Positions 26,921-37,249 of a stretch of 37,745 nucleotides of DNA are shown here, in pieces. The notes under the pieces were generated by a model. It made no database searches, had not been told where the DNA came from, and was given only the letters and a program-made list of their open reading frames with translations. The DNA comes from a virus (taxonomy: Duplodnaviria > Heunggongvirae > Uroviricota > Caudoviricetes). A program made the translations under genes and the position numbers. The stretch lies in the IMG/VR virus record IMGVR_UViG_2541047874_000005. One strand, given 5' to 3'. Numbering within the stretch: position 1 is the stretch's first letter; every line of letters begins with the position of its first letter.

Positions 26921-27310
26921 TCAGGCGGCTGCACCCGCCGTTTTCTCGTACTTACTGATGGTGATCTCGACCTTCCCTTTCGGGATAACCGGTCCCCACT
27001 CCACCAGCATTCTTTTCACCTGTCTGTCGTCTTCCCACACACCCGCGTGGGTCAACGCGTCAAACAGCGCCTTGTTATAGTTGTCCAGATCGCGGATCCG
27101 GTTATCCGGAGGAAACAACACGATCTCCACTGCAGCAGGTGCCGACGTTGGTTTTGGCAGACGACGTAACTGCTCAACTATTGCTGCGCACGCCGCGCTC
27201 TGAAATTTTCGCCCCGCCGCGCTTATCAGGCTCTTACCAGCAAATGCCCCTTTGTTGGGGTGTCGCCAGTACGTGTTCACGCTGGGCGGGAAAGGCAGGA
27301 TCAGCTTCAT
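26921..27310 (-). CDS. rusA: RusA-family Holliday junction resolvase
   Basis: 129 aa; LPFPPSVNTYWRH ... DLDNYNKALFDALTHAGVWEDDRQV match the RusA fold and acidic residues. Confidence 0.85.
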   Translation of the reverse strand: MKLILPFPPSVNTYWRHPNKGAFAGKSLISAAGRKFQSAACAAIVEQLRRLPKPTSAPAAVEIVLFPPDNRIRDLDNYNKALFDALTHAGVWEDDRQVKRMLVEWGPVIPKGKVEITISKYEKTAGAAA

Positions 27311-27633
27311 ACTTTCAGGCCTCTCTCATGTAACCAGTGGGTTGCACGCAGCCTGGCGTTTTCCTCACCGGCAAGCAGTGAGCGGATAATCCCGACCGCC
27401 TCGCTGTCGTCGTCCTTCACCGCGGTATGAAGAGTGATACCCCGGGCCACGCCACGCTTTATCGTGATGACGCCTTTTTTCTCCAGTGCGCGAAGATGTT
27501 CCACCGCTGCATTCACTGAACGGTATCCCAGCATGGTTGCCACCTCCTGATTGGTTGGCGGGAAGCCACGTTCTTTCTGGTAAGAAATCAGCATATCCAG
27601 CACCTGCTGCTGGCATTGAGTTAACGTCGTCAT
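27307..27633 (-). CDS. LexA N-terminal DNA-binding-domain-only protein (no S24 peptidase domain)
   Basis: 108 aa; residues 1-70 align with the LexA winged-helix DBD (QQQVLDMLISYQKERGFPPTNQEVATMLGYRSVNAAVEHLRALEKKGVITI); only about 38 further residues, no Ala-Gly site or Ser/Lys dyad. Confidence 0.75.
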   Translation of the reverse strand: MTTLTQCQQQVLDMLISYQKERGFPPTNQEVATMLGYRSVNAAVEHLRALEKKGVITIKRGVARGITLHTAVKDDDSEAVGIIRSLLAGEENARLRATHWLHERGLKV

Positions 27634-28316
27634 GCCGCCATCTCCCTGACCAGTTTTTCCGCCTGCTGGCGAACCTGCGCCAGAAACGCCTCACCACATG
27701 CCTCAAGTTCATCACGCCCGATGTAGCTGATTGCCGGTCCCTTCCAGGTCTTGTCGAAAACAGCAATAGCACCAGCGAAGAAAGCGCCTGTCGGCACCTG
27801 CTTCTCGTCCTTCGGTATAAACCAGGCAGGCAGTTCAAAACCAATACGCCCGCGAATAAAAGCAATATGATCTGCATCTTCCGGCCACCACACTTCGCTG
27901 GTGGCCGCTTTGATCAGGAAAACATAGCGCCCGCCCTTATCACGCATGACACTGGCATGTTTCATGATGTAACGCATGCCGGTGATGTATTGCCCCTCAT
28001 GCTGACTGGCGCGGCTGTATGGGGGATTACCAAAGGCAGCACCTTTAAGCTCCGCAAGACGTTCTGACCAGTCATGCGCCAGCGCGTTATCTTCCGCCGT
28101 GTAATACGCGGCACATTTGGCGTTATCACCGTCAGTAAACAGATCCAGAACAAACGGGCCAAACAGGGTGTTAATTCCCCAGAAAATGTTGTCCGGCGTG
28201 CGCCACTGATCGCCCACTTCCTTCAGTTCATGGGCTGGTTTGTTCCGCAGTTCCACCAGCGCCTGGCAATATTTATTACTCATTAAGCCCCCACGTAATT
28301 CCCTGACAGATACCAC
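27630..28316 (-). CDS. Phage-type DNA N6-adenine methyltransferase (orphan)
   Basis: 228 aa; motif IV FGNPPYS; no adjacent restriction endonuclease; likely start at internal M (MSNKYCQ) given overlap with the upstream gene. Confidence 0.8.
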   Translation of the reverse strand: MVSVRELRGGLMSNKYCQALVELRNKPAHELKEVGDQWRTPDNIFWGINTLFGPFVLDLFTDGDNAKCAAYYTAEDNALAHDWSERLAELKGAAFGNPPYSRASQHEGQYITGMRYIMKHASVMRDKGGRYVFLIKAATSEVWWPEDADHIAFIRGRIGFELPAWFIPKDEKQVPTGAFFAGAIAVFDKTWKGPAISYIGRDELEACGEAFLAQVRQQAEKLVREMAA

Positions 28317-28777
28317 TCTTCACCCGATGCAGCGCGCTTGCTGCTTTTCCGTAAGCACCGCTCACGACGCGCCAGAAAATTGTTTCGTTCTGGCTGGGAG
28401 TGGCTTTCACGGAATGCCGCCATCCACACGGTTGCAGCACGACGGTATAAGCCCCTGGACTCCAGTTCTTCAGCCTGGCGGGTCAGGCACAAAATCACCC
28501 GTGGATCGTTAGTGCCGACATAGAAATTGCGCACAGGTCTGGTTTCTCGAACTGGTTGTGGTTCCGGTTCCTGCGCTCTCTCAGTCAGGCGCGGGAAATG
28601 TCTGCGTGTATCTCCTTCACAACGGTGAGCCACACGCCCACTCTGACGTAACTTGCTTGCTGACTGCAGAACGCGCTGCCGTGAGTAACCTGCAAAAGCA
28701 TCCGCAATGTCTCCGGAAGTACACCCCGGATGGGCTTCAATGAATTTCTGAACTTCATTCAAAAGACTCATGATCAC
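28283..28777 (-). CDS. Protein with C-terminal PerC-like domain (putative transcriptional activator)
   Basis: 164 aa; C-terminal EELESRGLYRRAATVWMAAF...RRERCLRK matches my recollection of the PerC-family GLWRRAA.RW...RRE.CL motif. Confidence 0.45.
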   Translation of the reverse strand: MIMSLLNEVQKFIEAHPGCTSGDIADAFAGYSRQRVLQSASKLRQSGRVAHRCEGDTRRHFPRLTERAQEPEPQPVRETRPVRNFYVGTNDPRVILCLTRQAEELESRGLYRRAATVWMAAFRESHSQPERNNFLARRERCLRKSSKRAASGEEWYLSGNYVGA

Positions 28778-29592
28778 CCCCTGAATCCTTCCGGGATCTG
28801 GCTGTAGTCCACGTTGTCGTAACTGGCTTTGAAGTACGGGTCCTCGCGTCTGGCTGCAGATACCGCAGGAACTTCCCAGGATTCTTCGAAATGACGATCC
28901 GGACCAAAGAACGTGACAGCCTGTTTCACAAATTGTGTGCCGCTGTTACCCATCGCAGATACCCAGCCCGCGTAGCGTTTCACACCTTCCAGCATGGTTT
29001 CGGGGTTTACCCCCTCATTCAAACGGGCTTTCCAGGCTTTGAAGGCTGCAGATTTTGAATTGCCACCAGCACGTTTGGGATATACCAGCCATGCCTGCTC
29101 AAACTCCGGAGAGTATTCCGGTCGGTTTGAACGAACTCGCACGGACTCATCAACTGATGCACCAACAGCTATTGGTTCATTGACTGGTTCTTTGACTGGT
29201 TCAAAAGAGTGACTGGTTCTGGGTGAATCTCCTGCACTACCACCTGGTGCAACTCCTGCACTACCTGGTGAATTTGCTGCACCAGATAGTGAATTATTTG
29301 CACTACCCCCTAGTGAATCTCCTGCACCATCCAGATGAAGGAGATAGATATTACTTGAGTTACCTTTTTCACCTTTCCGGGTGACTTTTTTTACCAGCCC
29401 GGACTCACAAAGGGCCGCAATATGATTCATCACAGAACGTTTGCTAATCTCGCACTGGTCAGCAATATGCTGGTAGCTGGGCCAGCACTCACCCTGATCG
29501 CTGGCATTATCAGCCAGCTTGATCAGAACCAGTTTTCGCAATGGATTACCCACTCGAATTTTCATCGCTTTAACCATCAGCTCCATACTCAT
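28774..29592 (-). CDS. Putative replication initiation protein (N-terminal wHTH, low-complexity linker, C-terminal domain)
   Basis: 272 aa; N-terminal winged-helix-like VLIKLADNASDQGECWPSYQHIADQCEISKRSVMNHIAALCESGLV; Gly/Ser/Ala/Asn repeat linker encoded by tandem DNA repeats; lambda-O-like architecture. Confidence 0.55.
   Translation of the reverse strand: MSMELMVKAMKIRVGNPLRKLVLIKLADNASDQGECWPSYQHIADQCEISKRSVMNHIAALCESGLVKKVTRKGEKGNSSNIYLLHLDGAGDSLGGSANNSLSGAANSPGSAGVAPGGSAGDSPRTSHSFEPVKEPVNEPIAVGASVDESVRVRSNRPEYSPEFEQAWLVYPKRAGGNSKSAAFKAWKARLNEGVNPETMLEGVKRYAGWVSAMGNSGTQFVKQAVTFFGPDRHFEESWEVPAVSAARREDPYFKASYDNVDYSQIPEGFRG
29180..29340. repeat. Iteron-like tandem repeats inside the replication gene (candidate origin)
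   Basis: Three copies of GACTGGTTC (29182..29219) and about five degenerate 21-24 bp units of the form GTGAATCTCCTGCACTACC (29220..29335). Confidence 0.45.
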
Positions 29593-29825
29593 GCTGCACC
29601 TCCGAGATGCTTCATGTTTTTTCCGGAGCGAAAGGCTATAAGCGGCATACTGACGCGGTAATTACGGCCCAGCGGTTCACAAACCACCTTCTGACATTCA
29701 CGGTCAACCAGGCTAACACGTAGAACATGCCCTGCAGGCGTGGTGTACCACTGCCCAACTGTAGGAATTGATGTTTTTTTACGCTGAAGTAAACGGCGAA
29801 TATTGAGGCTCAACAGATTAAGCAT
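29589..29825 (-). CDS. Small hypothetical protein
   Basis: 78 aa ORF with start/stop overlaps to both neighbours; basic. Confidence 0.4.
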   Translation of the reverse strand: MLNLLSLNIRRLLQRKKTSIPTVGQWYTTPAGHVLRVSLVDRECQKVVCEPLGRNYRVSMPLIAFRSGKNMKHLGGAA

Positions 29826-30654
29826 GACGATGCCCTCCGCTGATATTCAGGAGACGGTGAATATGAAAATTAGCCTTATCCGCCAGACGAATACGTTCAG
29901 CCTGCAAGTTAAGAAGGGTTTCTACCAAAACCTGATGCGCCTGCGGATCCGAAAGAGTTACCTTGCGCAGAGCACGTAGTGCAGTTGTTACATAACTGAG
30001 TTTATGTAAGTCTTCATCATTCAGACGAGTGAGGGCTGGGACAGTAGCCATGATGGCAGCCTCCTTGATCGGTGAAATACTTCCACCACCGGAAACGCCA
30101 ATTTCGCTGGTGGTGAACTGAACGGGGTTGGCGTAACCGGTGATCAAGGAAACCGGCGCATCTTTCGATGCCCCCGCCCAGCCCACCATAACTTTGATGT
30201 GAGCAAATGCGGACGATAAAAAAGACGCTGGCGCGTCATATATCGCCTTGATCAATTCCAGGACGCCAATCCCGGCACCCGCTTTATAAGGTGCCTGAAC
30301 AGTGTAACGTCCCGGAATGGCAGAATCAATGTGCTGGTGGTCCTTCACACTCAACAAAATCACGCCTGAATTTCCACAAAGGACTAAAGCACTCATGCGG
30401 GTAGTCTTTGCGAAGATAGATAACGCGCTGTGTTTCTGGCTCCCAACGAATAACATGAACATAAAGTCCTCTTCCGTCACGAAACCAGCGGTTAAGTTCC
30501 TGCACAACTCGCCCCCCACAGTCAGGTAAAGTTCTCTGTGGTTACTTACAGCCAGGTGATTTGGTAATCTGCATTCATGCCGTAACAACAGGTGTTCAGC
30601 GACACTGACCACCAGCTGTTGCGACAAACGGTTATTTGCCGTTAAACTGTTCAT
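29818..30654 (-). CDS. Hypothetical early protein
   Basis: 278 aa; between CII-like and replication genes; no Walker motif; no family recognised. Confidence 0.5.
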   Translation of the reverse strand: MNSLTANNRLSQQLVVSVAEHLLLRHECRLPNHLAVSNHRELYLTVGGELCRNLTAGFVTEEDFMFMLFVGSQKHSALSIFAKTTRMSALVLCGNSGVILLSVKDHQHIDSAIPGRYTVQAPYKAGAGIGVLELIKAIYDAPASFLSSAFAHIKVMVGWAGASKDAPVSLITGYANPVQFTTSEIGVSGGGSISPIKEAAIMATVPALTRLNDEDLHKLSYVTTALRALRKVTLSDPQAHQVLVETLLNLQAERIRLADKANFHIHRLLNISGGHRHA

Positions 30655-31214
30655 GCGTTAGTTTCTCCACAGACACAAAACGCCACGACGCCCGGAGCTG
30701 CACACTCGCGGGCGTCACTCTTTTCTGGAGCGCAAAAGATTTTGTAGACCAGTGCTGCATGCTCCTGGAGCTTCGAAATTGACAGATACAACTCATCATT
30801 AATTGCTGTCTGCTCGTGTGGCTCCACTACCCCATCTTCGATTGCCGAACGAATCTGCTTTGAGTAACTCCCGATCTGTTCGATGACTTCCAGCAGGCGC
30901 TGGTTTATATCGGCGTTCTCTACTTCCTCAATTTCAGGAAGCGATACAAACACCCCACCAGCAGACTGTGCGACAGCATCCGCAATGTAGTGAGTGCCAG
31001 CCGCGCGCTGTAAAATCATTGCCCATCCCAGCGGGAAAATCTGATCGCCATCTGCACGAAGGCGGTTGAATAAAGCGTTCTCTGTTACATCCAGCCACTC
31101 AGCAGCTTCAGCGTAACCCCCCGGCAACGCCGCGATAGTTTTTCTGACAGCTTTCACGTACCACTCAGGCTGTTTTTCTACTTTCCAGTGATGCTTACCC
31201 ACGGTTAGCCTCAT
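30651..31214 (-). CDS. Putative CII-like regulatory protein (tentative)
   Basis: 187 aa, first gene after cro-like; family assignment by position and size only. Confidence 0.4.
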   Translation of the reverse strand: MRLTVGKHHWKVEKQPEWYVKAVRKTIAALPGGYAEAAEWLDVTENALFNRLRADGDQIFPLGWAMILQRAAGTHYIADAVAQSAGGVFVSLPEIEEVENADINQRLLEVIEQIGSYSKQIRSAIEDGVVEPHEQTAINDELYLSISKLQEHAALVYKIFCAPEKSDARECAAPGVVAFCVCGETNA

Positions 31215-31536: not shown

Positions 31537-32211
31537 ATGAAAACAGTCCATGACATCCGGCGGTCTAACGCCAGAAAACTGAGAGATGGTGTTGGCGGGA
31601 ATTCTTCCTTTGCCACCATGATTGATCGCGAGCCAACCCAGACCAGCAGGTTTATGGGAGATGGTGCTACTAAAAATATCGGTGACAGCATGGCACGGCA
31701 CATCGAAAAATGTTTCGACCTGCCTGTCGGATGGCTTGATCAAGAACACCAGACAACAAACATCACAAAAAAACCTGATGTTTCAATTACTAACAAACAA
31801 ATAACGTTAGTCCCTGTCATATCATGGGTACAGGCCGGAGCATGGAAAGAAGTTGGCTATTCTGAGGTTGATTTGAGCACAGCAGAAACTTATCCCTGCC
31901 CTGTACCCTGTGGCGAAATGACTTATATCTTGCGGGTGATTGGTGATTCAATGATTGATGAGTACCGCCCGGGAGACATGATTTTTGTTGATCCCGAAGT
32001 CCCTGCCTGCCACGGTGACGACGTTATTGCATTGATGCACGATACAGGCGAAACCACCTTCAAGCGATTGATAGAAGATGGAACACAGCGTTATCTCAAA
32101 GCATTAAACCCAAACTGGCCTGAGCCTTACATTAAGATTAACGGTAATTGCTCTATAATTGGTACAGTAATTTTCTCAGGAAAACCAAGAAGATACAAAA
32201 TAAAGGCCTAA
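31537..32211 (+). CDS. cI: CI-type prophage repressor with S24 (LexA-like) autopeptidase domain
   Basis: 224 aa; C-terminal VIGDSM...GD...K and a QAG cleavage-site-like motif; N-terminal HTH-like region; divergent from cro. Confidence 0.85.
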   Translation: MKTVHDIRRSNARKLRDGVGGNSSFATMIDREPTQTSRFMGDGATKNIGDSMARHIEKCFDLPVGWLDQEHQTTNITKKPDVSITNKQITLVPVISWVQAGAWKEVGYSEVDLSTAETYPCPVPCGEMTYILRVIGDSMIDEYRPGDMIFVDPEVPACHGDDVIALMHDTGETTFKRLIEDGTQRYLKALNPNWPEPYIKINGNCSIIGTVIFSGKPRRYKIKA

Positions 32212-36667: not shown

Positions 36668-36683
36668 ACTAAAACTATGGATA

Positions 36684-36709
36684 ACCCGTATATGTACGGG
36701 TTATTTTTC
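36684..36709 (+). terminator. Terminator after the xis-like gene (overlaps the convergent gene's stop)
   Basis: ACCCGTA-tatg-TACGGGT hairpin followed by TATTTTT. Confidence 0.55.
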
Positions 36710-37249
36710 TTTATCACTATCTTTTCTTGATTTGAACAATCCACTAACAACGAAACCAACCAAACCAACAATACTAATTGTACTTGTACCTAGTAATGCA
36801 ACGATCGCTTCAACTGGAGGCTTTCCTTCATGTGCAATAAGAAACGATGTAAACATTGCGACAACGAATAAGCACCAACACGACATAAACCAAACCGTGA
36901 ATGAGGCCATTTTTGTCCGAAGCTCATTGTCTATTTCTTTACCAGTTGCGTCAGCTATCTTATCCCGTACTTGTGATTTGAGCATATCAAGCTGAGCTTG
37001 AAGACTGTCCATTCTGTTCTGCTGCATAAACTCATGCAATGCACCAGTATTAGAACCAAACTCTTCTGCCTCCAGAATAGCTTTATTTTCTGAAGAAGAA
37101 TCATCGTCGCTCTCATGATTAGACGGCTCAAATGCAGATTTAAAAATCTGTTCTTGACTGTCAGTAGAGTTTAAGGATGCTTCAGAGCGACCATTTTCAA
37201 CACCTGCGGCCGCTCCGATAAGTTTATAGATATCTGAATTGTGAGACAT
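36701..37249 (-). CDS. Small membrane protein, candidate toxin/effector partner of the Panacea protein
   Basis: 182 aa; acidic Ser-rich N-terminal region, helical middle, two C-terminal TM helices; AT-rich; 22 nt after the Panacea gene. Confidence 0.6.
   Translation of the reverse strand: MSHNSDIYKLIGAAAGVENGRSEASLNSTDSQEQIFKSAFEPSNHESDDDSSSENKAILEAEEFGSNTGALHEFMQQNRMDSLQAQLDMLKSQVRDKIADATGKEIDNELRTKMASFTVWFMSCWCLFVVAMFTSFLIAHEGKPPVEAIVALLGTSTISIVGLVGFVVSGLFKSRKDSDKEK

What the first reader, a model, noticed from the sequence alone, without database searches (positions are those of the whole stretch)
29180..29340. Iteron-like tandem repeats inside the replication protein gene
Three GACTGGTTC copies and about five degenerate 21-24 bp units lie in the linker-encoding middle of the putative initiator gene, reminiscent of lambda ori within O. 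On the protein level they give EPVKEPVNEP and G/S/A/N-rich low-complexity segments.
Basis: seen in the sequence. Interest (0 to 1): 0.45.

Follow-up and report, generated by a model that had tools for sequence, protein, structure and literature searches.

The report
Phage replication origin inside initiator gene
The repeats are real and are very probably this prophage's replication origin, sitting inside the gene of the protein that binds it as in phage lambda, but in a different, widespread and so far uncharacterised initiator family.

Summary
In the linker-coding middle of a 272-aa initiator gene (28774-29592, minus strand) lie five 15-bp sites, GTGCA-N5-TKCAC, 21-24 bp apart (29223-29327). 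Two bp further on come three exact GAACCAGTCA units plus one degenerate unit (29169-29222).

The lambda-like reading is supported by comparison, not by experiment. About 90 homologous genes from gammaproteobacterial genomes and phages show the same layout.
- Nearly all carry 3-8 dyad-symmetric sites at the same place.
- In 39 of 65 arrays one site is read in another reading frame, so the same DNA gives a different peptide.
- Site sequence tracks the predicted recognition helix (an Arg in place of N56 goes with GTGAC..GTCAC).
- The downstream box keeps identical codons 96% of the time, against 41% in the N-terminal domain. It is also the GC minimum of the gene.
- Lambda's own four annotated iterons show the same features under the same analysis.

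The N-terminal domain is Pfam HTH_36, not lambda O. Relatives pair it with lambda-O-like C-termini and with P-like or DnaC-like loaders; this phage encodes no loader.

The module matches the "Eru6" type of Shiga-toxin phages, whose replication is described as unstudied. Verdict: a new member of a known kind, of moderate interest.

The parts
28774..29592 (-). Initiator gene (272 aa plus stop); 98-99% identical to SfV orf39, mEp460, Stx2c-phage and Stx2a_WGPS2 ('Eru6') replication genes
   Evidence: ORF list. Pfam HTH_36, E 1.8e-11. PHROG phrog_270 'replication initiation protein', E 7e-88. Phage matches.
29329..29592 (-). Codes for the N-terminal winged-helix DNA-binding domain (aa 1-88); predicted recognition helix about aa 51-63 (KRSVMNHIAALCE)
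   Evidence: AlphaFold model with pLDDT about 85 over this domain. The model lacks Met1, so its numbering is one lower. Foldseek returns only winged-helix proteins. The helix sequence co-varies with the iteron class.
29313..29327 (-). Iteron 1, GTGCAGGAGATTCAC
   Evidence: sequence
29289..29303 (-). Iteron 2, GTGCAAATAATTCAC
29268..29282 (-). Iteron 3, GTGCAGCAAATTCAC
29247..29261 (.). Iteron 4, GTGCAGGAGTTGCAC; its half-sites are a perfect dyad, so it matches the pattern on both strands
29223..29237 (-). Iteron 5, GTGCAGGAGATTCAC; ends 2 bp before the box, as in nearly all homologues
29169..29222 (-). Family-invariant box: CC AGAACCAGTCAC TCTTTT GAACCAGTCAAA GAACCAGTCAAT GAACCAATAG. It holds three exact and one degenerate GAACCAGTCA unit. 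It is the GC minimum of the gene and the inferred DNA-unwinding or helicase-entry element.
   Evidence: Synonymous-site conservation 96% against 41%. Codon usage outside the box. GC and stability profile.
28777..29121 (-). Codes for the C-terminal helical domain (about aa 158-272), inferred to recruit the helicase/loader; exchangeable between initiator families
   Evidence: Model helices at 161-228, pLDDT about 60-78. PHROG families named 'DnaD-like helicase loader' and 'primosomal protein'. The same domain is fused to other N-termini in the Eru7 O protein and in phage Evi. Relatives with this C-terminus are followed by IstB/DnaC-like genes.

Best explanation
The segment 29169-29327 is the phage's origin of replication, embedded in the linker-coding part of its own initiator gene. 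Proposed mechanism: dimers of the initiator's N-terminal winged-helix domain bind the five dyad-symmetric sites GTGCA-N5-TKCAC. The sites are spaced two helical turns apart, so they lie on one face of the DNA, and the bound dimers build a lambda 'O-some'-like complex. The stress opens the adjacent, less stable, family-invariant GAACCAGTCA-repeat box. The C-terminal domain then brings in the replicative helicase. This phage encodes no loader, so the helicase would be host DnaB with host DnaC. What is shown: the repeats exist; they are selected at the DNA level; they co-vary with the recognition helix; the box is conserved and AT-rich relative to the gene; the domain architecture; and the parallels with lambda. 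What is inferred: binding, unwinding, helicase recruitment and origin activity.
For: All five sites fall within 105 bp, against 0.27 expected in the whole window. In 87 homologous genes from phages and from GTDB species genomes, the linker holds 3-8 (mode 5) copies of an x5-N5-rc(x5) motif; equal-length N- and C-terminal coding controls have a mode of 2. Spacings are only 21, 22, 23 or 24 bp (apart from five of 30-33 bp). In 39 of 65 arrays one site is in another reading frame; for example, the identical 15-mer GTGCAGGAGATTCAC encodes xAGDSx or VQEIHQ. Iteron class is fully concordant with the recognition-helix signature: RS[VA][MI]-x-H goes with GTG[C/A]A..T[G/T]CAC..M-R-[H/A/K] goes with GTGAC..GTCAC, and [KR]S[TA]V[RK]xH goes with the TGCCR/GGGCA/TAGGC types. 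The Erwinia and Izhakiella helices carry Arg where WIN has N56 (plus two changes, AA to DD, at the helix's C-terminal end). Natural recombinants carry the N-terminal domain together with its own iterons, joined at the box to the window-type C-terminus (P0061 and P0072). In the box, identical amino acids use identical codons in 96% of pairs, against 41% in the N-terminal domain, across hosts with GC3 of 0.30-0.89. Arg is AGA in 64 of 64 cases, although AGA is 9% of Arg codons elsewhere in these genes. The box DNA is also read in other frames in Shewanella, Aliivibrio and Avibacterium. The box is the GC and stability minimum of the gene: 0.39 against about 0.52 overall, and 0.41 against 0.60-0.68 in high-GC hosts. 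Positive control: lambda's four annotated iterons lie at O codons 117-139, in three reading frames, 20-24 bp apart, followed by an AT-rich tract, and my dyad finder recovers them. A family member (L092) has a lambda-O-like C-terminus (37% identity, E 3e-22). Neighbouring genes in relatives are lambda-P-like, IstB/DnaC-like, DnaB or primase-helicase. The structure model shows a winged helix, a disordered linker and a helical C-domain.
Against: No experiment maps the origin in any phage of this family, and none was found in the literature available to me. The window's box is only mildly AT-rich (GC 0.43-0.45) compared with lambda's tract (0.17-0.29). This phage has no helicase or loader gene next to the initiator. 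Natural variants exist with two iterons (P0029, on 64 contigs, one of 5.2 Mb), one iterons-worth (P0042, a single iteron) or no box (P0040); whether those prophages replicate is unknown. One Pseudomonas subgroup has four direct repeats with weak dyad symmetry. Binding sites for the initiator inside its own gene could also, or instead, serve autoregulation.
Confidence: 0.8

Rival explanations
1. The repeats are only a low-complexity, flexible protein linker produced by replication slippage, and the DNA sequence itself has no function.
For: The linker is predicted to be disordered (pLDDT 30-38). In the window all unit lengths are multiples of three. Copy number varies among near-identical genes: 4-6 units in IMG/VR contigs, 8 in cdtI, and 1-9 in protein clusters.
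Against: The same 15-mer is kept in two reading frames with unrelated peptides in 39 of 65 arrays. The units have dyad symmetry, and the last one sits a fixed 2 bp from the box. Unit sequence tracks the recognition helix. Synonymous sites in the box are nearly invariant.
Confidence: 0.03
2. The sites are bound by the protein but act as operators (autoregulation, roadblock or copy-number 'handcuffing'), and the true origin lies elsewhere.
For: Winged-helix dimers binding palindromes are typical repressors (Foldseek hits to MarR, ArsR and PerR types). The sites lie inside the gene's own transcription unit. No helicase loader is encoded nearby in this phage.
Against: Relatives pair the same N-terminus, iterons and box with lambda-O-like C-termini and with P, DnaC or DnaB genes. 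The iterons are always followed by a conserved low-stability tract, as in lambda. No other comparable repeat array was found in the window. In iteron replicons, origin and control functions coexist (general knowledge).
Confidence: 0.1
3. The invariant GAACCAGTCA box is conserved as a module-boundary 'linker' for homologous recombination between phages, or because the peptide RTSHSFEPVNEP is needed, rather than as an unwinding element.
For: Recombinants P0061 and P0072 switch from foreign N-terminus plus iterons to the window-type C-terminus exactly at the box. A 37-bp megablast hit to the box alone appears in another E. coli HTH gene (H132). The peptide is nearly invariant.
Against: Codon identity of 96% across hosts from Vibrio to Pseudomonas, including the rare AGA codon, exceeds what peptide conservation explains. 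The DNA persists when read in other frames (RTSHSF versus PEPVTL, NQSIN). Other initiator families with the same C-terminus have their own A-rich 12-mer repeats at the same position. This fits a functional role next to the iterons. The recombination role and the unwinding role are not mutually exclusive.
Confidence: 0.1
4. The conservation reflects an RNA-level element in the mRNA (a structure, pause or frameshift site).
For: Frame-independent nucleotide conservation is also expected for an RNA element. A conserved rare AGA codon could cause pausing.
Against: There is no credible Rfam match (the best is a miRNA model at 22 bits against a gathering score of 84). The RNA fold is not better than shuffles (z = -1.3). 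Dyad sites phased at 21-24 bp that co-vary with a DNA-binding helix point to double-stranded DNA recognition.
Confidence: 0.02

Closest known systems
Phage lambda ori within gene O (and its 933W/P27 Stx-phage variants with six iterons)
   Same: The origin lies in the middle of the initiator gene, between the DNA-binding N-terminal domain and the loader-binding C-terminal domain. It has four to six dyad-symmetric iterons about two helical turns apart, followed by a less stable tract. Extra iterons add residues to the protein. Iterons are read in whatever frame they fall in (PMC7466680). Some family members carry a lambda-O-like C-terminus and a lambda-P-like neighbour.
   Different: The N-terminal domain is Pfam HTH_36 with a weak DnaD_N match, not Phage_rep_O, and BLASTP finds no significant similarity to lambda O. 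The iterons are 15-bp 5-N5-5 sites of unrelated sequence. The tract after them is an almost invariant repeat box (GC about 0.4) rather than an A/T run (GC about 0.2). The window contains no P-like gene.
P22 gene 18 and phage L gene 18 origins
   Same: These are lambdoid initiators with family-specific repeats inside their own coding region: four repeats of about 20 bp in P22 and six 11-bp repeats in L, inferred there from sequence to be the origin (PMC8022706 / bioRxiv 10.1101/2020.10.05.325894).
   Different: The initiator sequences and repeat motifs differ, and those phages encode a DnaB-type helicase (gp12) next door. I made no sequence comparison with them.
'Eru6' and 'Eru5' replication regions of Shiga-toxin phages (Fagerlund et al. 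2022, PMC8951638)
   Same: The window's gene is 98.4% identical in DNA to that of the Eru6 representative Stx2a_WGPS2 (AP012537). The Eru5 representative Stx2a_F403 has the same N-terminal family, with its own GGGCA-N5-TGCCC iterons and the box.
   Different: That work classifies the gene content and states that nothing is known about the replication proteins of Eru phages. It mentions no iterons or origin.
Iteron plasmid origins (Rep winged-helix proteins, iterons plus a DUE with 13-mer repeats, e.g. RK2, pPS10) and the SPP1 G38P / DnaD-type replisome organisers
   Same: A winged-helix initiator, tandem binding sites and an adjacent repeat-containing unwinding element (general knowledge, not tested here). 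The N-terminal fold resembles the DnaD N-terminal domain weakly (Pfam DnaD_N, E 3.6e-5, below the cut-off; PDB 2v79).
   Different: In plasmids the iterons are normally intergenic. No sequence-level relationship to plasmid Rep proteins was found, and there are no solved-structure relatives by sequence.

Membership tests
Lambda-type intragenic phage origin (iterons plus AT-rich tract inside the initiator gene) | Lies within the initiator's coding sequence, between the DNA-binding domain and the C-terminal domain | tested here: met
   ORF 28774-29592. Repeats fall at codons 89-142, between the winged helix (aa 1-88) and the helical C-domain.
Lambda-type intragenic phage origin (iterons plus AT-rich tract inside the initiator gene) | Three or more tandem repeats with internal dyad symmetry, phased about two helical turns apart | tested here: met
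   Five GTGCA-N5-TKCAC sites spaced 24, 21, 21 and 24 bp. The same holds in about 78 of 87 homologues, and in the lambda control.
Lambda-type intragenic phage origin (iterons plus AT-rich tract inside the initiator gene) | An easily melted AT-rich tract directly after the last iteron | tested here: inconclusive
   The box is the GC and stability minimum of the gene across 79 loci (0.39 against about 0.52). In the window it is only 0.43-0.45, against 0.17-0.29 in lambda. Actual unwinding cannot be tested here.
Lambda-type intragenic phage origin (iterons plus AT-rich tract inside the initiator gene) | The initiator binds the iterons specifically | not testable with these tools
   Indirect support only: complete concordance of recognition-helix signature with iteron class, and co-inheritance in recombinants.
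Lambda-type intragenic phage origin (iterons plus AT-rich tract inside the initiator gene) | The segment supports initiator-dependent replication | not testable with these tools
   Needs an ori-plasmid assay or marker-frequency analysis. Records of 41-45 kb labelled 'plasmid' that carry the gene are probably circular phage genomes and prove nothing.
Lambda O protein family (Pfam Phage_rep_O, PF04492) | N-terminal domain matches Phage_rep_O | tested here: not met
   Pfam gives HTH_36 (E 1.8e-11) and a sub-threshold DnaD_N match; no Phage_rep_O match at E <= 0.01. BLASTP against lambda O gives no significant match.
Lambda O protein family (Pfam Phage_rep_O, PF04492) | C-terminal P-binding domain, with a lambda-P-like loader gene immediately downstream | tested here: not met
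   The window's C-terminus is unrelated to lambda O, and the next gene is PerC-like. This feature is met in relatives: the L092 C-terminus is 37% identical to lambda O, and PF06992 genes follow the KpST15 gene and 17 GTDB loci.
HTH_36 'replication initiation O-like' phage initiators (PHROG phrog_270/8540; SfV orf39, ST64B sb42, Eru5/Eru6 HTH proteins) | Sequence membership | tested here: met
   phrog_270, E 7e-88. PF13730 above its cut-off. 98-99% identity to SfV, mEp460 and Stx2a_WGPS2. 5424 clusters at E <= 1e-5.

The most novel reading that the evidence does not exclude
The roughly 35-50-bp GAACCAGTCA-repeat box may be a previously unrecognised, near-universal origin element of a large family of gammaproteobacterial phage initiators. 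It would be read by something that does not change when iteron specificity changes: either the highly conserved non-recognition part of the N-terminal domain (perhaps on single-stranded DNA, as lambda O and plasmid Rep proteins bind their unwinding elements) or a conserved host protein such as DnaB or DnaC. It would mark the exact point of strand opening or helicase entry. Together with the natural helix-to-iteron substitutions (an Arg in place of N56 goes with half-site GTGCA to GTGAC), the family would offer a ready-made recognition code and a set of orthogonal origin/initiator pairs.
Probability: 0.3. Interest if true: 0.6.

Novelty: new member of a known kind. Interest (0 to 1): 0.45.

Why it matters
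This initiator gene is present, at 80% coverage or more, in 897 of 5426 complete E. coli genomes. It defines the Eru6 replication type of Shiga-toxin phages, and its N-terminal family also defines Eru5. The literature I could read says nothing is known about how these phages replicate. Locating the probable origin and its binding protein gives direct targets for studying or blocking induction-driven phage replication and toxin amplification. The comparative data also supply testable predictions. One is a single-residue specificity switch. The others are a minimal origin of two iterons plus the box, and an invariant unwinding element. Finally, the data illustrate how a DNA element and a protein linker share one sequence.

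Tried and rejected
- **RNA explanation.** The Rfam scan gave only a sub-threshold miRNA hit, and RNA folding was no better than shuffles (z = -1.3). I rejected this explanation.
- **Host-factor sites.** There is no DnaA-box consensus anywhere in the window (0 found, about 3 expected). No GATC lies within the element and GATC is not enriched. No promoter-like site lies in 28600-29900.
- **IHF, Fis and DnaA consensus sequences.** I compared these with the box by eye and they did not fit (not a formal test).
- **Structure.** The PDB sequence search found nothing relevant. Foldseek against the PDB gave only generic winged-helix matches at E about 1e-2, so there is no specific structural relative. 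Pfam found nothing for the C-terminal domain alone.
- **Literature.** Searches for the iteron, box or peptide sequences, and for SfV or ST64B origin descriptions, found nothing relevant. The review by Weigel and Seitz (2006) and the original SfV and ST64B genome papers are not in the library, so an earlier mention of these repeats cannot be excluded.
- **First viral-contig scan.** It returned only N-termini at least 99% identical to the window's. This was useful for copy-number variation but not for diversity. The GTDB scan supplied the diversity.
- **Plasmid collection.** The matching records are phage-sized circles and are not informative about origin function.

Full report
**What is there.** The finding lies inside ORF 28774-29592 on the minus strand, which encodes 272 aa. 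Pfam finds an HTH_36 domain at aa 17-67 (E 1.8e-11) and a sub-threshold DnaD_N match. PHROGs place the whole protein in phrog_270, 'replication initiation protein' (E 7e-88). The N-terminal half also matches families named 'replication initiation O-like', and the C-terminal half matches families named 'DnaD-like helicase loader' or 'primosomal protein'.

The gene sits in a lambdoid early-right operon. The order is: cI-like repressor (31537-32211, plus strand), a cro-like gene, a CII/CP76-like gene, an Ash-domain regulator, a 78-aa ORF, this gene, a PerC-like gene, Dam, a LexA-DNA-binding-domain protein and RusA. The gene is 98-99% identical in DNA to the replication genes of SfV (orf39), mEp460, cdtI, many Stx2c phages and Stx2a_WGPS2.

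**Checking the observation.** Tandem Repeats Finder reports 29173-29203 (period 12) and 29222-29327 (period 21/24). Read on the coding strand, each 21-24-bp unit contains a 15-bp core, GTGCA-N5-T[G/T]CAC. The cores lie at 29313-29327, 29289-29303, 29268-29282, 29247-29261 and 29223-29237. These five are the only matches in the window, where 0.27 are expected by chance; none of 100 shuffles reached the observed count.

Two bases after the last core comes AGAACCAGTCAC TCTTTT GAACCAGTCAAA GAACCAGTCAAT GAACCAATAG (29169-29220). The three exact GAACCAGTCA copies are unique in the window.

**Is the DNA or the peptide under selection?** I collected the following homologues:
- ten phage homologues;
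- 80 IMG/VR contigs with a near-identical (at least 99%) N-terminus;
- 80 loci from different GTDB species, including Enterobacter, Pseudomonas, Aeromonas, Shewanella, Xenorhabdus, Marinomonas, Aliivibrio and Avibacterium.

Five results bear on the question.

(a) In about 78 of 87 genes the linker holds 3-8 (mode 5) copies of a 5-N5-5 dyad motif. Equal-length segments coding for the N- and C-terminal domains give a mode of 2. In nearly all genes the last copy ends exactly 2 bp before the box.

(b) Spacings are almost only 21, 22, 23 or 24 bp. In 39 of 65 arrays one site sits in another reading frame, through a 23+22 spacing in place of 21+24. The identical 15-mer GTGCAGGAGATTCAC therefore encodes xAGDSx in one frame and VQEIHQ in the other. 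Likewise GTGACACAGAGTCAC encodes xDTESP or VTQSHx.

(c) The motif differs between lineages and follows the predicted recognition helix without exception in this sample.
- Helices of type [KR]RS[VA][MI]xH go with GTG[C/A]A..T[G/T]CAC.
- Helices with ..M-R-[H/A/K] go with GTGAC..GTCAC. These occur in Erwinia, Izhakiella, Aliivibrio, Vibrio phages D67 and D79, and mEp044.
- Helices of type [KR]S[TA]V[RK]xH go with TGCCR..TRGCA, GGGCA..TGCCC or a TAGGC-type repeat.
- The Erwinia and Izhakiella helices (KRSVMRHIDD) carry Arg at the position of WIN N56 (KRSVMNHIAA); the only other differences are the last two residues.

(d) Natural recombinants carry a foreign N-terminal domain with its own iterons, joined at the box to the window-type C-terminus (P0061 and P0072).

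(e) Among close relatives the iteron number varies from 1 to 9 and the number of box units from 2 to 5.

**The box.** The sequence CCC AGA ACC AGT CAC TCT TTT GAA CCA GTC AAT GAA is nearly invariant from E. coli to Vibrio, Shewanella and Pseudomonas. I compared 67 non-redundant genes whose N-terminal GC3 ranges from 0.30 to 0.89. Identical amino acids use the identical codon in 96% of pairs in the first nine box codons, against 41% in the N-terminal domain.

Codon choice in the box departs strongly from the rest of these genes. Arg is AGA in 64 of 64 cases, and the two Ser codons are AGT (65 of 65) and TCT (62 of 62). Outside the origin region these codons account for 9%, 15% and 13% of their amino acids.

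The same DNA is read in other frames in three groups: Shewanella (PEPVTLEPVNES), Aliivibrio (RTSHRTSQLEPV) and Avibacterium (RTSHSINQSIN). Aligned on the box, 79 genes show their GC and stability minimum there: 0.39 against about 0.52, and 0.41 against 0.60-0.68 in high-GC hosts.

Two other initiator families share the window-type C-terminus but have unrelated N-termini: the Eru7 O protein and the phage Evi protein. At the same position they carry their own repeats followed by their own A-rich 12-mer repeats (TACAGAGAATAC and ACAGATAAAGAT). So the layout 'binding repeats, then a short-period low-GC repeat tract' is general. This particular box goes with the N-terminal family.

**Protein architecture.** An AlphaFold model built from 20 homologues gives three parts:
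- a confident winged helix at aa 1-88 (pLDDT about 85; recognition helix about aa 51-63; beta-hairpin wing);
- a disordered linker covering the repeats (pLDDT 30-38);
- a moderately confident helical C-domain.

The model lacks Met1, so its numbering is one lower than the protein's. Foldseek finds only winged-helix proteins, including MarR/ArsR types and the DnaD N-terminal domain, at weak E-values.

**Positive control and relation to lambda.** In the lambda record the four annotated iterons lie at O codons 117-139, in three different reading frames, 20-24 bp apart. A tract of GC 0.17-0.29 follows them. My dyad finder recovers all four.

The window protein has no significant similarity to lambda O. 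However, a member of the same N-terminal/iteron/box family (L092) has a C-terminus 37% identical to lambda O's (E 3e-22).

Genes immediately downstream in relatives are of these kinds:
- IstB/DnaC-like (27 loci, including those with the window-type C-terminus; Aeromonas phage AsXd-1 adds a DnaB gene);
- lambda-P-like (17 loci, and the Klebsiella phage);
- an unknown 260-aa protein (20 Pseudomonas loci);
- a primase-helicase (Stx2a_F403).

The window has none of these.

**Mechanism proposed.** Dimers of the N-terminal domain bind the five phased dyad sites and form an O-some-like complex. The neighbouring box opens. The C-terminal domain recruits the helicase, here presumably host DnaB with DnaC.

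The DNA-level selection, the covariation, the architecture and the relative instability of the box are shown. Binding, opening, recruitment and origin activity are inferred by analogy with lambda (PMC7466680). In lambda, two iterons plus the AT-rich tract are reported to suffice for unwinding. That would accommodate the natural two-iteron variant P0029.

**Rivals.**
- A purely peptide-level linker is contradicted by the frame switches and the synonymous-site data.
- An operator-only role cannot be excluded without experiments. It fits less well with the conserved melting tract and the replication-gene neighbourhoods.
- The box may also serve as a recombination joint. That does not explain its codon-level invariance across distant hosts any better than a direct DNA function does.
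- An RNA element is not supported.

**Comparison with the literature.** The replication region corresponds to 'Eru6' of Fagerlund et al. (representative Stx2a_WGPS2), and the F403 relative corresponds to 'Eru5'. That paper notes the HTH_36 proteins, states that nothing is known about the replication proteins of Eru phages, and does not mention iterons.

For phage L and P22, repeats inside gene 18 have been read as origins in the same way. I found no paper holding these iteron or box sequences. Older subscription papers on SfV and ST64B, and the review by Weigel and Seitz, were not available.

**Verdict.** The element works like lambda ori, but it does not belong to the lambda O protein family through its DNA-binding domain. 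It is best filed as a new, sequence-defined member of the class of intragenic iteron origins of lambdoid phages. It has one unusual feature, the family-wide invariant box next to lineage-specific iterons.

Confidence is about 0.8 that this is the origin. It is higher, about 0.9, that the sites are DNA-level binding sites of the gene's own product.

Noticed in passing
window 28283-28777 (minus strand) and the operon 26921-31214: No helicase, helicase-loader or primase gene accompanies the initiator. The next gene, which overlaps the initiator's stop codon, is a PerC-like activator with a winged-helix-like N-terminus, followed by Dam, a LexA-DNA-binding-domain protein and RusA. In phage cdtI the PerC-like gene is absent altogether.
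   Followed up: partly
L005:3888-6540 (Stx2a_F403, 'Eru5'): The large primase-helicase gene downstream of the F403 initiator matches Hint and LAGLIDADG domains between its Toprim and AAA_25 parts, so it appears to contain an intein.
   Followed up: no
L110 (Pseudomonas bharatica) and L141 (Erwinia tracheiphila), initiator genes: Both genes end prematurely with ...HPEPVTLLNQ*. The reading frame is lost within the box, so these are probably pseudogenes in decaying prophages. L139 (Ca. Phlomobacter) keeps a single iteron plus the box.
   Followed up: no
Protein clusters P0029, P0042, P0040 (close relatives of the window gene): Natural variants exist with two iterons (250 aa, on 64 contigs including a 5.2-Mb one), one iteron (242 aa), or a deletion removing the last iteron and the whole box (247 aa). 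Whether those prophages still replicate is unknown.
   Followed up: partly
L171:997-1890 (Eru7 O gene) and L172:769-1839 (phage Evi): Unrelated N-terminal domains are fused to the window-type C-terminal domain. Each gene carries its own repeats (23-bp CGCGGAGAAGGGAAACCCCTCAC x2.7; 10-11-bp GTCACGNNNN x5), followed by A-rich 12-mer repeats. These are probable origins of two more initiator families.
   Followed up: partly
window, about 130-150 bp upstream of the box in gene coordinates (about 29350-29375); seen in the 79-locus profile: A second GC dip (about 0.40) lies just upstream of the iterons, in the DNA coding for the conserved wing (KGNSSN), so the iteron array is flanked by low-GC DNA on both sides.
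   Followed up: no
whole window: There is no match to the DnaA-box consensus TTWTNCACA on either strand (0 found, about 3 expected), and there are no tRNA genes.
   Followed up: no
plasmid records NZ_CP148393.1 (44.6 kb), NZ_CP118695.1 (41.5 kb), CP080634.1 (43.4 kb), and Arsenophonus records of 40-48 kb: Phage-sized circular records filed as plasmids carry this initiator family. They are probably excised or episomal phage genomes.
   Followed up: no
window 36680-36710: An inverted repeat (AACCCGTATATGTACGGGTT) followed by a T run lies between the end of a plus-strand ORF and a minus-strand ORF. It looks like an ordinary bidirectional terminator, and the short TRF hits nearby seem incidental.
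   Followed up: partly
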